A stretch of DNA of 64,000 nucleotides from Escherichia phage SP27: the sequence record LC494302.1. One strand, written 5' to 3'. The position numbers were made by a program, and so were the translations under genes. Numbering within the stretch: position 1 is the first letter of the stretch; each line of letters begins with the position of its first letter. Under the pieces are notes generated by a model. That model searched no databases. It saw only the letters and a list, made by a program, of their open reading frames with translations, and was not told the DNA's origin. Of the stretch, positions 28,867 to 35,250 are shown in pieces.

Positions 28867-29277
28867 ATGATTGAAATGGAAGGAACTCTGGTGTATGATC
28901 CAGAACGTGGCACTATGAAAAAGAAGAAGGACTTCTGGTTAGTACTACAACTTCCATTACAGTTGGTTCGATACTACCAGTACTTCATCAGAACTGACTT
29001 ACATATTGATATTAAAGACCCACAATGGGGAGCACATGTCAGTATCGTTCGTGGTGAAGTGCCACCAAATCCAGAGTACTGGAAAAAGTACGATGGAATG
29101 AAAGTAAAGATAAAGTTCAATCCTTGTATTGAGATAGTAAAAGATAAAAAGAATCCAGGTTCATTCTTTATCATTGAATTTGAAGATGATTTCATCACAC
29201 ATATTAGAAATGAACTAGGACTACCAACCAAGTACTTTAAATATCACATCACTGTAGGTAGAACTTACTACGATTAA
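28867..29277 (+). CDS. 2H phosphoesterase superfamily protein (LigT/CPDase-like; Acb1-like anti-CBASS nuclease is one possibility)
   Basis: Two H-x-[S/T]-x motifs at the expected spacing (WGAHVSIVRGE and KYHITVGR) in a roughly 130-aa protein. Confidence 0.5.
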   Translation: MIEMEGTLVYDPERGTMKKKKDFWLVLQLPLQLVRYYQYFIRTDLHIDIKDPQWGAHVSIVRGEVPPNPEYWKKYDGMKVKIKFNPCIEIVKDKKNPGSFFIIEFEDDFITHIRNELGLPTKYFKYHITVGRTYYD

Positions 29278-29445
29278 TGTGGTTTTTACAGTAAATATGT
29301 CTTGTAATAAAATAAAAATATGCTATACTACTTAAACATTTGAAAAGAACGTTTTTGTACTGTAGAAAGTCCGATGAGGCTTTTGCAAATGGCCTCTTTG
29401 CCATCTTTGTGATTGCCCATCTTAACAATCAACAAAGGAGGCGTT

Positions 29446-30372
29446 TTGAAACAAGCGAAAAAAGCACTGAAAACTAAGACTACTTATGGTGTTCTAGTTT
29501 GCACAGTACTTGTCGCTGCGATTGGATTTTATGGTTTTTCTCAAAATGATCGTGTATCATCATCGGACGAAAGTCAGGTACACAATTTAAAACCACAAGT
29601 TACGCAAATTCAAAAGCAGGAATTACCAAAGGTAGAAATATCAAAGGATGTTCCACGCGGCGAGAAGCATTATACGGTTCAACCTGGTGATAGTTATTAT
29701 TCTATTGCTAAAAAGTTTAAACCTAAAAATGTACAACTTGAAGAGTATGTTATTTTGTTGAAAAATATCAATTTAAATGCTACTCTTCATACTTCTCAGG
29801 GTATCTTTATCCCAACAAAAGAGGATTTGAAGAACGTATTGTTACCAGATGTGACTGTACTGTTTGATTATAATGATCCAGAAATTGTCAATCACATCAA
29901 AGAAGCTGAAGGTTCAATTGAATTTCAGTCCAAGAACAAACGCCGTTTACTTGGTGGGAAAGTCGGAGTTCCTTTCCACAATTCTAAATTTCATCCCTAC
30001 AAGGACATGAAAGGTAATTATACAATAGGTTATGGGCATTATTTGGGTAGAAAAGAATCTGATGCGATTAAGTACAGAAACGGTATTACCAAAGCTCAAG
30101 CCAATAAACTTTTAATGCAAGATATGAAAAGAACATATAATGACTTTTTATTATTGATGCAGAAAAAAGAAGCAGTAAATCTGACCAAAGAACAACAACG
30201 TATTCTTTATGAAATGTCCTATACAATGGGTGTTGATAAATTAGCAACGTTTAATAAACTTTGGAAAAGTGTGAAAAATGATAACCCTAAGAAATTTAAA
30301 AAAGAAATTATGAATTCCTTATGGTATCGTCAAGTTACAAACCGAGCAGATTTGTTGTTAAGTTCACTCTAA
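29446..30372 (+). CDS. membrane-anchored LysM-lysozyme (T4 lysozyme-like GH24 domain)
   Basis: TTG 29446 sits 4 nt after AAAGGAGG. N-terminal signal-anchor helix, LysM-like YTVQPGDSYYSIAKKF, and a C-terminal domain with YTIGYGH and SLWYRQVTNRADLL resembling T4 lysozyme. Confidence 0.7.
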   Translation: MKQAKKALKTKTTYGVLVCTVLVAAIGFYGFSQNDRVSSSDESQVHNLKPQVTQIQKQELPKVEISKDVPRGEKHYTVQPGDSYYSIAKKFKPKNVQLEEYVILLKNINLNATLHTSQGIFIPTKEDLKNVLLPDVTVLFDYNDPEIVNHIKEAEGSIEFQSKNKRRLLGGKVGVPFHNSKFHPYKDMKGNYTIGYGHYLGRKESDAIKYRNGITKAQANKLLMQDMKRTYNDFLLLMQKKEAVNLTKEQQRILYEMSYTMGVDKLATFNKLWKSVKNDNPKKFKKEIMNSLWYRQVTNRADLLLSSL

Positions 30373-30388
30373 AAAAGGAAGGTGAAGT

Positions 30389-30721
30389 ATGCTAAATCTA
30401 AATATTCAAGGCAACGTTGATATCACTCCAGCAATCCAAGATGCTATTTACAATGAAGCAAAAAGTCTGGATAAGTACCGTACTTCTTCAGTACTAGACA
30501 TTGGTGTTCATGTTAAGAAAGAGCATAAAACTCAATATGCTGTAACTTTAACTGCTGGTAGTAAATCAGTAACTGCTGATGATGCTGATTTGTATAAAGC
30601 AATTGTTGAATCTTTTGATAAGATGGAAACTGTATTCAGTAAAGACAAAAGCATTAAATTACACCGCCGAAACCATCCAGAACACCCAGTTCTTGATGAT
30701 TTGACAGAAAACGAAGAGTAA
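30389..30721 (+). CDS. hpf: ribosome hibernation promoting factor homolog (HPF/RaiA/YfiA family)
   Basis: MLNLNIQGNVDITPAIQDAIYNEAKSLDKY closely parallels the E. coli HPF N-terminus as recalled; downstream A..DLYKAIVESFDKME matches the DMYAAIDxLxDKL region. Confidence 0.7.
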   Translation: MLNLNIQGNVDITPAIQDAIYNEAKSLDKYRTSSVLDIGVHVKKEHKTQYAVTLTAGSKSVTADDADLYKAIVESFDKMETVFSKDKSIKLHRRNHPEHPVLDDLTENEE

Positions 30722-30731
30722 TATATACTAA

Positions 30732-30760
30732 AGGGACAGATTAATTCTGTCCCTTTTCTT
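30732..30760 (+). terminator. rho-independent terminator
   Basis: agggacaga-ttaat-tctgtccct hairpin followed by TTTCTT. Confidence 0.55.
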
Positions 30761-30774
30761 ATGGAGTTTTAATT

Positions 30775-31170
30775 ATGAATTATTCCTGGATGGAAATTGT
30801 AAAATCTCTAATATCAACACATGATATGGACTTACCTGAACACCTAGTTATTAATAGATGGTACTATCCATATCCAGATAACCGTTGTGTTGGGATTGGA
30901 TTTTTTATTAATGAAAAATCTCAATATATTGGATTAATTGAAGATTATACAAAAACCAACATTGCGTTCTCTATTGAGTTGAATGTAGATCACATAAAAT
31001 ACTACACCAATAAAATGGACGAAGACGATGGTGATGTTATAATTCCAGCAGAAATAGACGAAGCTTCATTTTTTCAGTTATCATTAATTCATGATGTATC
31101 TGATATTACTTATGATAATGTGAAAGACCTTTTTATATTGTACAATAAACTGTATAATTACTTTTTATAA
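30775..31170 (+). CDS. hypothetical protein (131 aa)
   Basis: ORF with GGAG RBS. Confidence 0.45.
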   Translation: MNYSWMEIVKSLISTHDMDLPEHLVINRWYYPYPDNRCVGIGFFINEKSQYIGLIEDYTKTNIAFSIELNVDHIKYYTNKMDEDDGDVIIPAEIDEASFFQLSLIHDVSDITYDNVKDLFILYNKLYNYFL

Positions 31171-31183
31171 TGGAGATAAATTT

Positions 31184-33943: not shown

Positions 33944-33944
33944 C

Positions 33945-34193
33945 ATGAAAGTTAAAATTTATGGTCGCAAGACTGGTTGTAAATTTTGCGACACTGCAAA
34001 AGCTGTATGTGAACAAAATAAATTTGAAATGGAGTTTGTAGATATTGTTGCTGAAGGTATCGATGGTTCAAAACTGTCTGAAATTTGTGGTGAACCAGTT
34101 CGTCAAGTTCCTCAAATTTTCGTAAATGACATTTATGTACCAGGTGGTTGTACTGGGTTTATTGAAGGTCTTAAAGAAGGTCGTTGGAACTAA
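33945..34193 (+). CDS. glutaredoxin-like redoxin (NrdC/NrdH-type RNR electron donor)
   Basis: CxxC active site (GCKFCD) near the N-terminus and VPQIFVNDIYVPGGCTGF resembling the glutaredoxin PQIFI.G..IGG motif; 82 aa. Confidence 0.65.
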   Translation: MKVKIYGRKTGCKFCDTAKAVCEQNKFEMEFVDIVAEGIDGSKLSEICGEPVRQVPQIFVNDIYVPGGCTGFIEGLKEGRWN

Positions 34194-34435
34194 TGGATAT
34201 TGAAAAAGTATCATCTCGTGCAAAACAACTAGCTGATACGTTGGGAGTAGAGTTCAAAATTCCTGATATTTCAATAGCTAAAGAAAAAGCCCAGATTAAA
34301 ATTAACAAGATGAAAGAATATCTATCTAAACAAGAACAGTATGATTCCGCTGTCGAATTTATTGTAAAATCTTTTAGTAAAGAGGATATTTTGGAATTTA
34401 TCAAATATGTGAAGGTTTCTGGCAACCCTAAATAA
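34193..34435 (+). CDS. hypothetical protein (about 80 aa)
   Basis: ATG overlaps the upstream stop (TAATG). Confidence 0.4.
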   Translation: MDIEKVSSRAKQLADTLGVEFKIPDISIAKEKAQIKINKMKEYLSKQEQYDSAVEFIVKSFSKEDILEFIKYVKVSGNPK

Positions 34436-34466
34436 ATGTGAAGAACAAAAAGTTCTTCTTAACAAT

Positions 34467-34724
34467 TTGGGAGATACTATTATGCTCAGTTTTCGTGAAC
34501 AATTAGCAAAAGGTCAATTTCAGGCTAAAGCTCAAACTAATATTCCTAAAAAATCTGCATTTTTAGGAACAATTACGGAAGATGGATTTTGTGATTATGA
34601 TGCACCAGAAGATTCATGGTACATTACAAAAGACACAAAACGCAGTAATAGACTTCACAAAAGTACAATAGCTAGAAAGCATCGAAAAGAATTAAAGAAA
34701 ATCCGTTTCGGTGAAGAAGAATAA
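34467..34724 (+). CDS. hypothetical basic protein (85 aa)
   Basis: ORF with GGGAG RBS; Lys/Arg-rich C-terminus. Confidence 0.4.
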   Translation: MGDTIMLSFREQLAKGQFQAKAQTNIPKKSAFLGTITEDGFCDYDAPEDSWYITKDTKRSNRLHKSTIARKHRKELKKIRFGEEE

Positions 34725-34734
34725 TTTAAAATAA

Positions 34735-34762
34735 GGACTCTGACCACAGAGTCCTTTCTTTT
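34735..34762 (+). terminator. rho-independent terminator
   Basis: ggactctg-acca-cagagtcc hairpin followed by TTTCTTTT. Confidence 0.55.
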
Positions 34763-34773
34763 CGGAGAATATA

Positions 34774-35250
34774 ATGATTCATGAACACCGAGGTAATCTG
34801 TTTGAATTATTCAGTACTGTAACAGATGATAAAACAGCAATACATATAATTGCTCATGGTTGTAACGCACAGGGTAAAATGGGTTCAGGTTTTGCAAAAG
34901 AGCTAAGAAATCGTTACCCAATGGCATATGATGATTATAAAGCATATGAAAAGGAAATGGGATTTCTTAGAATTGGACAAATTGCATATTCAGCAATTAA
35001 CGATAATTTGATTATTGCAAACTGTATTACCCAAAAAATGTACGGTAATGACGGTGCTAAATATGTCAGTTATGATGCAATCGACGATGTGTTCAAACAT
35101 CTAAATTATTTTTGTAAAGTTGATCGAGATGTTCATGTACACTTCCCGAAAATTGGAGCCGATTTGGGCGGCGGTAACTGGAACGTTATCAAAGAAATCA
35201 TTGATCACCGACTGGTCAATGCAGAAAAACACTTATACATTCTAAAATAA
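34774..35250 (+). CDS. macrodomain protein of the TARG1/OARD1/DarG type (ADP-ribose hydrolase family)
   Basis: GNLF...HIIAHGCNAQGKMGSGFAKELRNRYP and FPKIGADLGGGNWNVIKEII parallel the GDLF...AHC.S.D..MGAGIA and PRIGCGLDRLQW segments of TARG1-type macrodomains as recalled. Confidence 0.65.
   Translation: MIHEHRGNLFELFSTVTDDKTAIHIIAHGCNAQGKMGSGFAKELRNRYPMAYDDYKAYEKEMGFLRIGQIAYSAINDNLIIANCITQKMYGNDGAKYVSYDAIDDVFKHLNYFCKVDRDVHVHFPKIGADLGGGNWNVIKEIIDHRLVNAEKHLYILK

What the first reader, a model, noticed from the sequence alone, without database searches (positions are those of the whole stretch)
28867..35250. Co-localised RNA / nucleotide-signal processing island
Within about 6.4 kb the phage encodes a 2H phosphoesterase, a ribosome hibernation factor, a CCA-adding enzyme, a NUDIX hydrolase, a glutaredoxin and a TARG1-type macrodomain, interleaved with small unknown ORFs. 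2H phosphoesterases and Appr-1''-p-processing macrodomains act together in the tRNA-splicing/2'-phosphotransferase pathway, and NUDIX enzymes hydrolyse ADP-ribose and NAD-derived products. Together this suggests a toolkit for tRNA repair and removal of NAD/ADP-ribose-derived signals or adducts, which are common outputs of bacterial immune systems. The grouping may be functional rather than coincidental.
Basis: inference. Interest (0 to 1): 0.6.

Follow-up and report, generated by a model that had tools for sequence, protein, structure and literature searches.

The report
Conserved jumbo-phage tRNA-care and ADP-ribose-removal block
This 6.4-kb stretch of an E. coli jumbo phage really does hold the listed enzymes and keeps them in the same order in distant relatives, but it looks like an old inherited block holding two separate toolkits (tRNA/ribosome upkeep and removal of ADP-ribose marks) plus unrelated genes, built from families already described in phages.

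Summary
The window is an Asteriusvirus (121Q/PBECO4-like, ~350 kb) jumbo coliphage. The order 2H - lysozyme - (HPF) - CCA - NUDIX - Grx - u85 - macro - neck is kept in every Rak2-like genus. It is also kept, more spread out, in Vibrio phage 2.275.O, where these genes are almost the only ones shared in that region.

The single-pathway reading (2H + macro in the Tpt1/Appr>p route) is not supported:
- The phage has no KptA/Tpt1.
- Its T4-type PseT + RnlA tRNA repair pair lies ~50 kb away.
- The macro is a Tk.4/AdfM- and SCO6735-like DNA de-ADP-ribosylase (anti-DarTG2 type).
- 2H and macro are not neighbours in about 14 other lineages.

The 2H family instead sits inside tRNA gene arrays next to RNA ligase, RlaP, Thg1 and PTH2, and is once fused to YqeY. 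That points to tRNA end-healing, perhaps alongside the HD-less CCA enzyme. Terminators and promoters split the stretch into at least four likely transcription units. The families and the general idea are already published (Iyer et al. 2021, 2022). Interest is modest.

The parts
28867..29277 (+). Small standalone 2H phosphoesterase (136 aa), at the edge of the 2H-SAK family. Predicted RNA/tRNA 2',3'-cyclic-phosphate end-healing enzyme.
29446..30372 (+). LysM + phage lysozyme with an N-terminal hydrophobic segment. The likely start is TTG 29446, after the AAGGAGG ribosome-binding site; the ORF opens at 29413.
   Evidence: Pfam Phage_lysozyme E 1.6e-11 and LysM E 1.2e-4. 28% identical to T4 e. 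Start as annotated in 121Q; sequence.
29302..29329 (+). Sigma-70-like promoter with an extended -10 element (TTGTAA-16-TGcTATACT) upstream of the lysozyme gene.
   Evidence: Consensus scan and direct reading. Promoter-like sites are not enriched in the region overall, so this is suggestive only.
30389..30721 (+). Short HPF/RaiA(YfiA)-family ribosome-associated protein (110 aa).
   Evidence: PF02482 41 bits (cut-off 23.7); TIGR00741 36.3 bits, below its 40.9 cut-off. Found at the same position in most Rak2-like lineages and in Vibrio phage 2.275.O, absent from RaK2.
30733..30759 (+). Intrinsic terminator after HPF (GGGACAG-ATTAATT-CTGTCCC followed by TTTTCTT).
   Evidence: A terminator is annotated at the same place in phage UE-S1.
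30790..32319 (+). Five small ORFs of unknown function: 30790-31170, 31184-31369 (hydrophobic), the tandem paralogues 31366-31776 and 31763-32185, and 32197-32319. This is the variable segment between HPF and CCA.
   Evidence: No Pfam or NCBIfam hits, only PHROGs of unknown function; both paralogues hit phrog_20693. Found only in Asteriusvirus loci.
32321..33433 (+). Class II CCA-adding tRNA nucleotidyltransferase (370 aa) without the HD phosphohydrolase half.
   Evidence: PolyA_pol head E 3e-18 plus RNA-binding domain E 4e-8. NCBIfam 'multifunctional CCA' matches only profile positions 1-207 of 409. The L032 and Vibrio homologues have the same HD-less architecture. 4 of the phage's 7 tRNA genes lack an encoded CCA.
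33442..33534 (+). Promoter-like sites in the 108-bp CCA-NUDIX gap (GGGACA-16-TGATATAAT; TGTGGTATAAT).
   Evidence: Consensus matches only.
33545..33943 (+). NUDIX hydrolase of the T4 NudE clade.
   Evidence: PF00293 E 1e-12 with an intact Nudix box. 39% identical to T4 NudE, E 4e-14. Substrate cannot be read from sequence.
33945..34193 (+). GrxA-type glutaredoxin (CKFC active site), probable reductant for the phage ribonucleotide reductase.
   Evidence: NCBIfam GrxA E 1e-18. 29% identical to T4 NrdC. Phage NrdAB are encoded far away.
34193..34435 (+). Small ORF of unknown function (u83).
   Evidence: No family hit. Conserved in Rak2-like loci.
34467..34724 (+). Small basic protein u85 with a conserved ARxHRKExK C-terminus, always just upstream of the macro gene.
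   Evidence: Family alignment. Paired with macro also in Vibrio phage 2.275.O. No Pfam hit and no T4 homologue.
34735..34762 (+). Intrinsic terminator between u85 and macro (GGACTCTG-ACCA-CAGAGTCC followed by TTTCTTTTC).
34774..35250 (+). Macrodomain of the ALC1-like class, SCO6735/Tk.4 (AdfM) subtype. Predicted ADP-ribosyl glycohydrolase acting on DNA.
   Evidence: PDB BT1257 8e-16, SCO6735 8e-12, Poa1p 9e-7, DarG 2e-3. The only NCBIfam hit is antitoxin DarG. Homologous to T4 Tk.4. Gln87 aligns with the essential Gln85 of SCO6735.

Best explanation
The stretch is a real segment of the accessory-gene region just upstream of the neck/tail module of Rak2-like jumbo phages, vertically inherited over a long period. 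It is not one pathway or one operon. It holds three kinds of genes.

(A) A tRNA/translation-upkeep set.
- The small 2H phosphoesterase most likely opens 2',3'-cyclic phosphate ends on cleaved or processed tRNA (inferred).
- The HD-less CCA-adding enzyme completes the phage's own CCA-less tRNAs and rebuilds damaged 3' ends (inferred from family and from 4 of 7 tRNA genes lacking CCA).
- The HPF/RaiA-like protein acts on ribosomes (inferred from family only).

(B) An ADP-ribose-removal set.
- The macrodomain is a Tk.4/AdfM- and SCO6735-like glycohydrolase that most likely strips DarT2-type ADP-ribose from thymidine in phage DNA (inferred by homology to tested proteins).
- The NudE-like NUDIX hydrolyses ADP-ribose, NAD-capped RNA or related dinucleotides (inferred from T4 NudE).

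(C) Unrelated housekeeping: a LysM-lysozyme, a GrxA-type reductant for ribonucleotide reductase, and eight ORFs of unknown function.

The grouping reflects conserved ancestral gene order in T4-related jumbo phages more than present-day co-operation of all members. The only sub-link with independent comparative support is 2H with the tRNA/RNA-repair machinery.
For: Identity of the phage: the stretch is 99.5% identical to Asteriusvirus genomes.

Domain calls.

Synteny:
- The same order is found in all 17 Rak2-like loci fetched.
- Against a 34-kb Vibrio phage 2.275.O locus, 7 of 62 window ORFs match by tblastn (one unknown ORF, 2H, CCA, NUDIX, u85, macro, neck), all in the same order, and HPF is added by profile search.

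2H and tRNA/RNA repair:
- 2H lies inside same-strand tRNA arrays in 10 IMG/VR loci forming at least 4 clades that are <=56% identical to one another, and again in L056. In L059 a tRNA ends 17 bp upstream of 2H.
- An RNA ligase (PF09414) lies within 5 kb in L029-L032 and L056.
- RlaP + kinase, and Thg1 + TROVE + ligase, are neighbours in other loci. PTH2 and YqeY are further neighbours, and one protein is a 2H-YqeY fusion.
- The CCA enzyme lacks the HD half, and 4 of 7 phage tRNA genes lack CCA.

Macro:
- Homologous to T4 Tk.4; the tk.4 knockout sensitises T4 to DarTG2.
- SCO6735 removes thymidine-linked ADP-ribose, and its essential Gln85 is conserved as Gln87.
- A phage AdfM was also shown in chimalliviruses.

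NUDIX: 39% identical to T4 NudE, which acts on ADP-ribose, FAD and Ap3A, and on NAD caps in vitro.

Separate transcription units: two terminators and promoter-like sites.

Not a complete toolkit: PseT + RnlA lie 47-50 kb away, the tRNA genes 165 kb away, and RlaP 14 kb upstream.
Against: - No function was tested here, and all substrate assignments are by homology or gene neighbourhood.
- The tRNA-array lineages are related, so they are not fully independent events. In this phage itself 2H is 165 kb from the tRNA genes.
- T4 Acb1, a 2H enzyme with a proven anti-CBASS role, also sits 1.4 kb from a tRNA cluster, so proximity to tRNA genes does not prove a tRNA substrate.
- NUDIX and NADAR recur near 2H in several unrelated loci (L054, L056, Vibrio, Atu_ph07). 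This could mean a real link between RNA repair and NAD/ADP-ribose metabolism that this two-set model underrates.
- Phage rv5 HPF did not bind ribosomes in the one published test.
- Promoter-like sites are no more frequent than in shuffled sequence.
Confidence: 0.6

Rival explanations
1. The genes form one co-operating toolkit in which 2H, macro and NUDIX process the by-products of NAD-dependent RNA repair in sequence (2'-phosphate to Appr>p to Appr-1''p to ADP-ribose to AMP), and also clear NAD-derived immune signals.
For: - 2H, NUDIX and NADAR or macro recur within a few kb of each other in several divergent phages: L056 (ligase, NUDIX, NADAR), L054 (NUDIX), Vibrio 2.275.O (NADAR, NUDIX, macro), Atu_ph07 (macro 4.9 kb, NADAR 7 kb) and phage G (macro 2.7 kb).
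- The host E. coli encodes KptA, which could supply the missing step.
- The same scheme was proposed for jumbo phages in PMC7824862 and PMC9503650.
- The macro also resembles Poa1p, the yeast Appr-1''p phosphatase (E 9e-7).
Against: - No KptA/Tpt1 in the phage. Its ligase system is PseT + RnlA, which leaves no 2'-phosphate, and it lies 50 kb away.
- The macro is closest to DNA-ADP-ribose hydrolases and to T4 Tk.4/AdfM.
- No macro lies within the fetched flanks of 2H (mostly 8-10 kb each side) in ~14 lineages.
- Phage G's neighbouring macro belongs to a different subfamily (Met instead of Gln).
- Terminators separate the genes.
Confidence: 0.15
2. The 2H protein is a counter-signalling phosphodiesterase like Acb1 or the coronavirus/rotavirus 2',5'-PDEs. 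It would degrade cyclic or linear oligonucleotide immune signals (CBASS, type III CRISPR) rather than heal RNA ends.
For: - The phage has no Acb1 orthologue.
- T4 Acb1 occupies a comparable position near the tRNA genes and gene 1.
- Acb1 uses the same HxT/HxT tetrad.
Against: - No sequence relationship to Acb1: there is no Pfam PF23474 hit, while T4 57B scores 2.7e-60, and hhalign gives 0.9% probability.
- Neighbourhoods are dominated by RNA ligase, RlaP, Thg1, kinases and tRNA genes, and one member is fused to YqeY.
Confidence: 0.15
3. Pure historical accident. The stretch is just part of a plastic accessory region where non-essential genes accumulate, and no subset of its genes works together.
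For: - The whole neighbourhood is collinear in Rak2-like phages, including flanking unknown ORFs such as u118, u105 and u125.
- The T4 homologues (e, nudE, nrdC, tk.4) sit in the equivalent plastic region in a different order over ~19 kb.
- Patchy presence and absence of HPF, YqeY and NADAR among genera.
- Unrelated genes are interleaved (lysozyme, Grx).
Against: - Among 62 ORFs in 40 kb, 7 are shared with Vibrio phage 2.275.O by tblastn and HPF by profile search; five of those seven lie inside the finding (2H, CCA, NUDIX, u85, macro). So they are old and under selection.
- The association of 2H with tRNA arrays, RNA ligases and YqeY is far beyond chance.
Confidence: 0.2

Closest known systems
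T4 Tk.4 = AdfM (anti-DarT factor, macrodomain), and SCO6735 / BT1257 of the ALC1-like macrodomain class
   Same: Homologous over ~75-100% of its length (29% identical to Tk.4; E 8e-16 and 8e-12 to BT1257 and SCO6735). Shares the N-x-x-T-Q and P-[KR]-I-G-x-G-L-[GA]-G-G-x-W motifs. Gln87 aligns with the essential Gln85 of SCO6735.
   Different: Has Gly where SCO6735 has Val25. Lacks the catalytic Lys of DarG, TARG1 and PhiKZ AdfM. No activity or DarTG2 phenotype has been tested for this protein.
Acb1 (T4 57B, PF23474) and other viral 2H phosphodiesterases
   Same: Compact (~140 aa) standalone 2H fold with an HxS/T + HxT tetrad. Acb1 is the top structural match.
   Different: No detectable sequence relationship to Acb1. 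Gene neighbourhoods point to RNA repair and tRNA rather than cyclic-nucleotide signals.
2H-SAK domain (PF22547) and LigT/ThpR-type RNA 2',3'-cyclic phosphodiesterases of RNA-repair systems
   Same: Borderline Pfam match (25.8 bits against 27), while most homologues carry the precomputed PF22547 label. Associated with RNA ligase, RlaP and kinases, as described for RNA-repair operons.
   Different: A standalone 136-aa protein rather than a domain of a multidomain protein, and shorter than LigT (~170-185 aa). In this phage it is not next to a ligase.
E. coli multifunctional CCA-adding/repair enzyme (Cca)
   Same: The N-terminal head and neck match over profile positions 1-207 (E 5e-81).
   Different: The C-terminal HD phosphohydrolase half is not matched (no Pfam or NCBIfam coverage there), so the repair phosphoesterase activities of the host enzyme are probably missing (the role of the HD domain is from my own knowledge of Yakunin et al. 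2004).
T4 NudE (e.1 / NudE.1)
   Same: 39% identical with an intact Nudix box. In both phages it lies in the same neighbourhood as the lysozyme gene.
   Different: Shorter N-terminus (about 20 residues before the Nudix box). Substrate untested.
Phage-encoded HPF (rv5, GAP32; Mizuno et al. 2019)
   Same: A short HPF/YfiA-family protein in a large myovirus.
   Different: Divergent (below the TIGR00741 cut-off). The only tested phage HPF, from rv5, did not co-purify with ribosomes.

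Membership tests
2H phosphoesterase superfamily | Two H-x-T/S-x catalytic motifs | tested here: met
   H57-V-S59-I and H127-I-T129-V. The His residues and T129 are invariant and S59 nearly so, across 18 and 20 homologues.
2H phosphoesterase superfamily | 2H fold (two pseudo-symmetric lobes) | tested here: met
2H phosphoesterase superfamily | Metal-independent cyclic phosphodiesterase activity | not testable with these tools
   Needs enzyme assays.
Pfam 2H-SAK (PF22547) | Score at or above the gathering cut-off (27 bits) | tested here: inconclusive
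   25.8 bits, C-terminal part only. 24 of 29 close homologues carry the precomputed PF22547 label.
Acb1 anti-CBASS nuclease (PF23474) | Sequence membership in the Acb1 profile | tested here: not met
   No Acb1 hit for the window protein, while T4 57B scores 2.7e-60. hhalign of A1 against 57B gives probability 0.9%.
Acb1 anti-CBASS nuclease (PF23474) | Cleavage of 3'3'-cGAMP, cUA or cAAA | not testable with these tools
   Needs a biochemical assay.
Tpt1/KptA - 2H - macro pathway (NAD-dependent RNA 2'-phosphate removal) | A KptA/Tpt1 2'-phosphotransferase encoded with the system | tested here: not met
   E. coli KptA finds nothing by tblastn (E<=1) in the 350 kb fetched of the 351,992-bp genome of the 99.5%-identical phage ECO103 4-12-1. 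Only one query sequence was used. The host has KptA.
Tpt1/KptA - 2H - macro pathway (NAD-dependent RNA 2'-phosphate removal) | A ligation route that leaves a 2'-phosphate junction | tested here: not met
   The phage encodes T4-type PseT (34% identical, 5e-43) and RnlA (36%, 8e-58), 47-50 kb away. From established T4 biochemistry, these give ordinary 3'-5' junctions.
Tpt1/KptA - 2H - macro pathway (NAD-dependent RNA 2'-phosphate removal) | 2H and macro genes linked across genomes | tested here: not met
   No macro within the fetched flanks of 2H (mostly 8-10 kb each side) in L024-L035, L047, L048, L054 and L056. It is linked only in Rak2-like phages, Atu_ph07 and phage G.
TARG1 / DarG-type macrodomain | Catalytic lysine (TARG1 K84, DarG K80) | tested here: not met
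   The aligned position is Gln87.
SCO6735 / Tk.4 (AdfM) subtype of ALC1-like macrodomains | Gln at the position of SCO6735 Gln85, and overall sequence homology | tested here: met
   Gln is conserved in the window protein, RaK2, Vibrio 2.275.O, Atu_ph07, T4 Tk.4, SCO6735 and BT1257. PDB E-values 8e-16 and 8e-12. tblastn to T4 tk.4.
SCO6735 / Tk.4 (AdfM) subtype of ALC1-like macrodomains | Val/Ile at the position of SCO6735 Val25 | tested here: not met
   Gly29 in the window protein. The paper calls this feature specific to SCO6735.
SCO6735 / Tk.4 (AdfM) subtype of ALC1-like macrodomains | Removal of thymidine-linked ADP-ribose, or protection from DarTG2 | not testable with these tools
   Shown for SCO6735 and T4 Tk.4, not for this protein.
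Pfam Macro (PF01661) | Score at or above the gathering cut-off (22 bits) | tested here: not met
   16.4 bits. Membership of the superfamily rests instead on the PDB and NCBIfam matches.
HPF/RaiA (PF02482; TIGR00741) | Profile score above the cut-off | tested here: inconclusive
   Pfam 41 bits, above 23.7. TIGR00741 36.3 bits, below 40.9. Ribosome binding untested.
Class II CCA-adding enzyme | Pol-beta head domain plus RNA-binding neck | tested here: met
   PF01743 at 66.8 bits and PF12627 at 33.2 bits.
Multifunctional CCA addition/repair protein (E. coli type) | C-terminal HD phosphohydrolase domain | tested here: not met
   The NCBIfam PRK10885 match covers only positions 1-207 of 409, at 272.6 bits against a 451-bit cut-off. 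No HD Pfam hit.
NUDIX hydrolase, T4 NudE clade | Nudix box GX5EX7REUXEEXGU and similarity to T4 NudE | tested here: met
   Box GKAEGNETFKEAAVRECFEETGY. PF00293 at 48.5 bits. 39% identical to T4 NudE.
GrxA-family glutaredoxin | CxxC active site and family profile | tested here: inconclusive
   C12-K-F-C15 is present. The best NCBIfam hit is GrxA at 67.3 bits, below its 84-bit cut-off. Pfam Glutaredoxin is above its cut-off.

The most novel reading that the evidence does not exclude
The small standalone 2H protein is a dedicated tRNA 3'-end healing enzyme. It would form, with the HD-less phage CCA-adding enzyme (and in relatives a YqeY tRNA-binding module), a split version of the bacterial 'multifunctional CCA repair' enzyme. 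The pair would be an ancestral partner of phage tRNA arrays, letting jumbo phages restore tRNAs whose acceptor ends carry 2',3'-cyclic phosphates after attack by host nucleases or after unusual precursor processing. Acb1-type anti-CBASS enzymes might then be offshoots of such tRNA-array-associated 2H genes.
Probability: 0.2. Interest if true: 0.55.

Novelty: new member of a known kind. Interest (0 to 1): 0.3.

Why it matters
If the assignments hold, this coliphage carries a ready candidate anti-DarTG2 factor (macro) and an uncharacterised but very widespread small 2H enzyme family (about 1,100 clusters at 50% identity) tied to phage tRNA arrays and RNA-repair genes. These are cheap to test by deletion and in vitro assays, and they bear on the host range of therapeutic jumbo coliphages. 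The result also warns against reading a plausible-looking 'island' as a pathway: here gene order is mostly inherited, and the biochemical link proposed between 2H and macro lacks its central enzyme.

Tried and rejected
2. The Acb1 membership test was negative.
3. Ribozymes as a source of cyclic-phosphate tRNA ends: Rfam at gathering threshold on 10 tRNA-array or tRNA-adjacent 2H loci plus the first 50 kb of ECO103 (which holds its 7 tRNA genes) found only tRNAs. The idea is unsupported, though new ribozyme classes may not be in Rfam.
4. The T4 late-promoter motif TATAAATA as a timing marker occurs once in 64 kb against ~10 expected, so it is not usable.
5. The promoter scan found no more sigma-70-like sites than in shuffled sequence. 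The individual promoters cited are therefore weak evidence.
6. I first took HPF to be an Asteriusvirus-specific insertion because RaK2 lacks it. Profile searches found it at the same position in most Rak2-like lineages and in the Vibrio phage, so this was rejected.
7. 2H-macro proximity in phage G and Atu_ph07 looked like independent support. But phage G's macro is a different subtype, and ~14 other lineages show no linkage.
8. Reading the 121Q annotation genome-wide (1-150 kb) was uninformative, being mostly 'hypothetical protein'. It was replaced by homology searches on the unannotated ECO103 genome.
9. No T4 homologue of u85 was found.
10. One T4 fetch used the wrong coordinates and returned no useful gene.

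Full report
**What the window is.** The 6.4-kb stretch is 99.5% identical to Escherichia phages ECO103 4-12-1 and EC22.5-2. It is 95-99% identical to 121Q, slurp01, phAPEC6 and 13 other records (PBECO4 94.7%). These are genus Asteriusvirus, ~350-kb 'Rak2-like' jumbo myoviruses. Their GenBank records already label most of these genes: tRNA nucleotidyltransferase, nudix hydrolase, glutaredoxin, macro domain protein, HPF/RaiA, LysM lysozyme.

**Observation check.** All genes lie on the + strand.
- HPF/RaiA (30389-30721), the CCA enzyme (32321-33433), NUDIX (33545-33943, intact Nudix box) and glutaredoxin (33945-34193) are clear.
- Macrodomain (34774-35250). It is weak in Pfam (16.4 bits) but matches the solved macrodomains BT1257 and SCO6735 at 8e-16 and 8e-12, Poa1p at 9e-7 and DarG at 2e-3. 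Its only NCBIfam hit is antitoxin DarG.
- Eight small ORFs have no family assignment.

**Is the grouping conserved?** Yes.
- In all 17 Rak2-like loci fetched (Alcyoneusvirus RaK2, GAP32, CBB, Serratia BF, Yersinia fHe-Yen9-04 and metagenomic relatives; 2H 53-61% identical) the order is 2H - lysozyme - [HPF] - variable ORFs - CCA - NUDIX - Grx - [YqeY] - u83 - u85 - macro - u105 - u125 - neck.
- HPF, YqeY and an upstream NADAR gene are patchy. For example, RaK2 has no HPF and Asteriusvirus has no YqeY or NADAR.
- The much more distant Vibrio phage 2.275.O (2H 35% and macro 37% identical) has this order: tRNA array - 2H - HPF - CCA - NADAR - HD - NUDIX - GroEL - YqeY - u85 - macro - sigma factor - PTH2 - neck.
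- Of 62 window ORFs between 10 and 50 kb, tblastn finds 7 in that 34-kb Vibrio locus, all collinear: one unknown ORF (23492-23932), 2H, CCA, NUDIX, u85, macro and neck. A profile search adds HPF.

The 'island' genes are therefore old, selected anchors in an otherwise fluid accessory region. Conserved order within one collinear phage lineage does not by itself show that the genes work together.

**Outside that lineage.**
- T4 carries homologues of the lysozyme (e), NUDIX (nudE, 39% identical), Grx (nrdC) and macro (tk.4). They sit in its own plastic region, spread over ~19 kb in a different order. That region also holds an RlaP nucleotidyltransferase, the tRNA genes and the unrelated 2H enzyme Acb1.
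- The 2H family occurs in only 76 phage records, all jumbo phages.
- A macro gene lies 4.9 kb from 2H in Agrobacterium phage Atu_ph07 and 2.7 kb away in Bacillus phage G. Phage G's macro is a different subtype, with Met instead of the conserved Gln.
- No macro or NUDIX lies within the fetched flanks (up to 10 kb each side) of 2H in 12 IMG/VR loci or two huge uncultured phages. None of four further metagenomic contexts has a macro.
- That is roughly three linked lineages out of ~17, against about one expected by chance. It is not convincing.

**What the 2H protein is associated with.**
- In IMG/VR loci L024-L033 the 2H gene lies inside a same-strand tRNA gene array, with tRNAs on both sides and the nearest 7-1152 bp away. 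These loci form at least four clades that are <=56% identical to one another.
- The arrays also hold RNA ligase (PF09414; 12-2569 bp from 2H in L029-L032), PTH2, YqeY, thioredoxin and, in L032, an HD-less CCA enzyme.
- An exhaustive profile search finds 1,099 family representatives, nearly all standalone proteins of 130-170 aa.
- Of six arbitrarily picked distant members, four had usable context:
  - L055: RlaP - P-loop kinase - 2H.
  - L056: 2H overlapping an RNA ligase, within a 14-tRNA array that also holds NUDIX and NADAR.
  - L059: tRNA-Ile 17 bp upstream of 2H, then TROVE, a kinase, Thg1 and an RNA ligase.
  - L054: 2H - kinase - NUDIX.

- One 335-aa member is a 2H-YqeY fusion. YqeY also lies 380 bp from 2H in Atu_ph07. 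From my own knowledge, the GatB/YqeY domain is a tRNA-binding module.

This is consistent guilt-by-association for an RNA, and specifically tRNA, end-healing role. It agrees with what Iyer et al. inferred for jumbo-phage 2H proteins.

**The CCA enzyme.** It matches the E. coli multifunctional CCA protein only over the nucleotidyltransferase half (profile positions 1-207 of 409), and no HD domain is detected. The L032 and Vibrio homologues share this architecture. In the near-identical ECO103 genome, 4 of the 7 tRNA genes lack an encoded CCA, so an ordinary role in maturing phage tRNAs is enough to explain the gene. Whether the separate 2H enzyme supplies the end-healing activity that the host enzyme carries in its HD domain is my hypothesis. 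It is not shown.

**The macrodomain.**
- It belongs to a family present in 2,124 phage records, including T4 tk.4.
- A 2025 preprint reports that tk.4 is the single T4 gene needed on DarTG2 hosts and renames it adfM.
- A 2026 paper shows that a macrodomain AdfM of chimalliviruses removes DarT2 ADP-ribose from DNA.
- SCO6735, the closest functionally characterised solved relative, removes thymidine-linked ADP-ribose and depends on Gln85. That Gln is conserved as Gln87 here and in RaK2, Vibrio 2.275.O, Atu_ph07 and T4 Tk.4.
- The catalytic Lys of TARG1, DarG and PhiKZ AdfM is absent.

The best reading is a DNA de-ADP-ribosylase that counters DarTG2, not an Appr-1''-p phosphatase of tRNA splicing.

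**The Tpt1 pathway test.** I assembled the first 350 kb of the 351,992-bp ECO103 genome.
- It has single copies of 2H, macro, HPF, CCA and NUDIX.
- It has an RlaP nucleotidyltransferase at window 14963-16195.
- Its seven tRNA genes are 165 kb from the island.
- T4-type PseT and RnlA lie 47-50 kb away.
- Nothing resembling KptA/Tpt1, NADAR, PTH2, YqeY, an Rnl2-type ligase or Acb1 was found.

The phage's heal-and-seal system is thus elsewhere and needs no 2'-phosphate removal, so nothing in the phage generates Appr>p.

**Transcription.** Good intrinsic terminators follow HPF (~30733-30759, also annotated in phage UE-S1) and u85 (~34735-34762). Extended -10 promoter-like sites precede the lysozyme and NUDIX genes. 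Promoter-like sites are not enriched overall, so this is suggestive only. At least four units are likely...2H | lysozyme-HPF | small ORFs-CCA | NUDIX-Grx-u83-u85 | macro...

**Other members.**
- Grx is GrxA-like. T4 NrdC is its homologue, and the phage NrdAB genes are far away. This points to nucleotide metabolism.
- NUDIX is NudE-like. T4 NudE hydrolyses ADP-ribose, FAD and Ap3A, and decaps NAD-RNA in vitro. Its substrate cannot be fixed from sequence.
- Phage HPFs are known, but the one tested (rv5) did not bind ribosomes.

**Comparison with what is known, and novelty.** Every family here has been described in phages. The idea that jumbo phages combine 2H, Macro, NADAR, Nudix and CCA enzymes for RNA repair and counter-NAD defence is set out in Iyer et al. 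2021 and 2022. What this analysis adds:
- The block is an ancestral syntenic unit reaching to Vibrio phage 2.275.O.
- The 2H-macro biochemical link is not supported in this phage.
- The small 2H family is tightly tied to tRNA arrays, RNA ligases and YqeY.
- The macro is of the Tk.4/SCO6735 (Gln) type.

**Verdict.** It is a new member of known kinds, of modest interest (0.3). The most novel reading still open is a split 2H + CCA (+YqeY) system for repairing tRNA 3' ends.

Noticed in passing
L024, L026-L033, L056, L059 (2H at ~10001-10410 in most loci): Distant homologues of the 2H gene lie inside same-strand tRNA gene arrays of uncultured large phages, often beside RNA ligase, PTH2, YqeY, thioredoxin or CCA genes. 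In L059 a tRNA-Ile ends 17 bp before the 2H start.
   Followed up: yes
L053:952-1959 (protein P0035): A single 335-aa ORF fuses the 2H domain to a YqeY (GatB-tail-like) domain. It was seen on one 3.3-kb metagenomic contig only, so an assembly artefact is not excluded.
   Followed up: partly
window 14963-16195 (+): A 410-aa RlaP-family (RNA-ligase-associated Pol-beta) nucleotidyltransferase, homologous to T4 NrdC.11, lies 14 kb upstream of the finding. It is a further RNA-repair-type gene outside the 'island'.
   Followed up: partly
ECO103 genome (L044-L045) 249080-250009 and 251226-252236; outside the window: T4-type polynucleotide kinase PseT and RNA ligase RnlA homologues sit together ~50 kb from the finding. 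The seven tRNA genes are at 31-35 kb of that genome, 165 kb away.
   Followed up: partly
window 34467-34724 (+): The small basic protein u85, with a conserved ARxHRKExK C-terminus, always sits directly upstream of the macro gene, even in Vibrio phage 2.275.O. An intrinsic terminator lies between the two genes. Function unknown; it has no T4 homologue.
   Followed up: partly
window 31366-31776 and 31763-32185 (+): Tandem paralogues (both phrog_20693) share a C-terminal FIDDTFGID motif. They are found only in Asteriusvirus loci.
   Followed up: no
window 23492-23932 (+): A 146-aa unknown ORF is the only gene outside the finding, apart from the neck protein, that is shared and collinear with the Vibrio phage 2.275.O locus (30% identical to NVP2275O_334).
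   Followed up: no
whole window: The T4 late-promoter motif TATAAATA occurs once in 64 kb, against about 10 expected from shuffles (all 100 shuffles had at least one). This is a strong depletion.
   Followed up: no
window 16287-19663: This 3.4-kb piece, inside a 929-aa ORF (16902-19691), has no megablast match in the otherwise 99%-identical ECO103 genome. It is a variable or replaced gene.
   Followed up: no
L027:15154-15228; L035:122-547: One phage tRNA array contains a tRNA with a CTA anticodon (amber suppressor, called tRNA-Pyl by ARAGORN). Another 2H locus carries a phage-encoded tmRNA 9.4 kb upstream.
   Followed up: no
L015, L018, L023 (7-8 kb upstream of 2H); L049:15609-16097: NADAR-domain genes (the AdfN/DarG1 type of DNA de-ADP-ribosylase) occur in the same block in Serratia BF, Yersinia fHe-Yen9-04, CBB and Vibrio 2.275.O. 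They are absent from the window's phage.
   Followed up: partly
window 29413-29520: The LysM-lysozyme has an N-terminal hydrophobic segment (VLVCTVLVAAIGFYGF), suggesting a membrane-anchored or signal-anchor-release type endolysin. The start codon is probably TTG at 29446.
   Followed up: no
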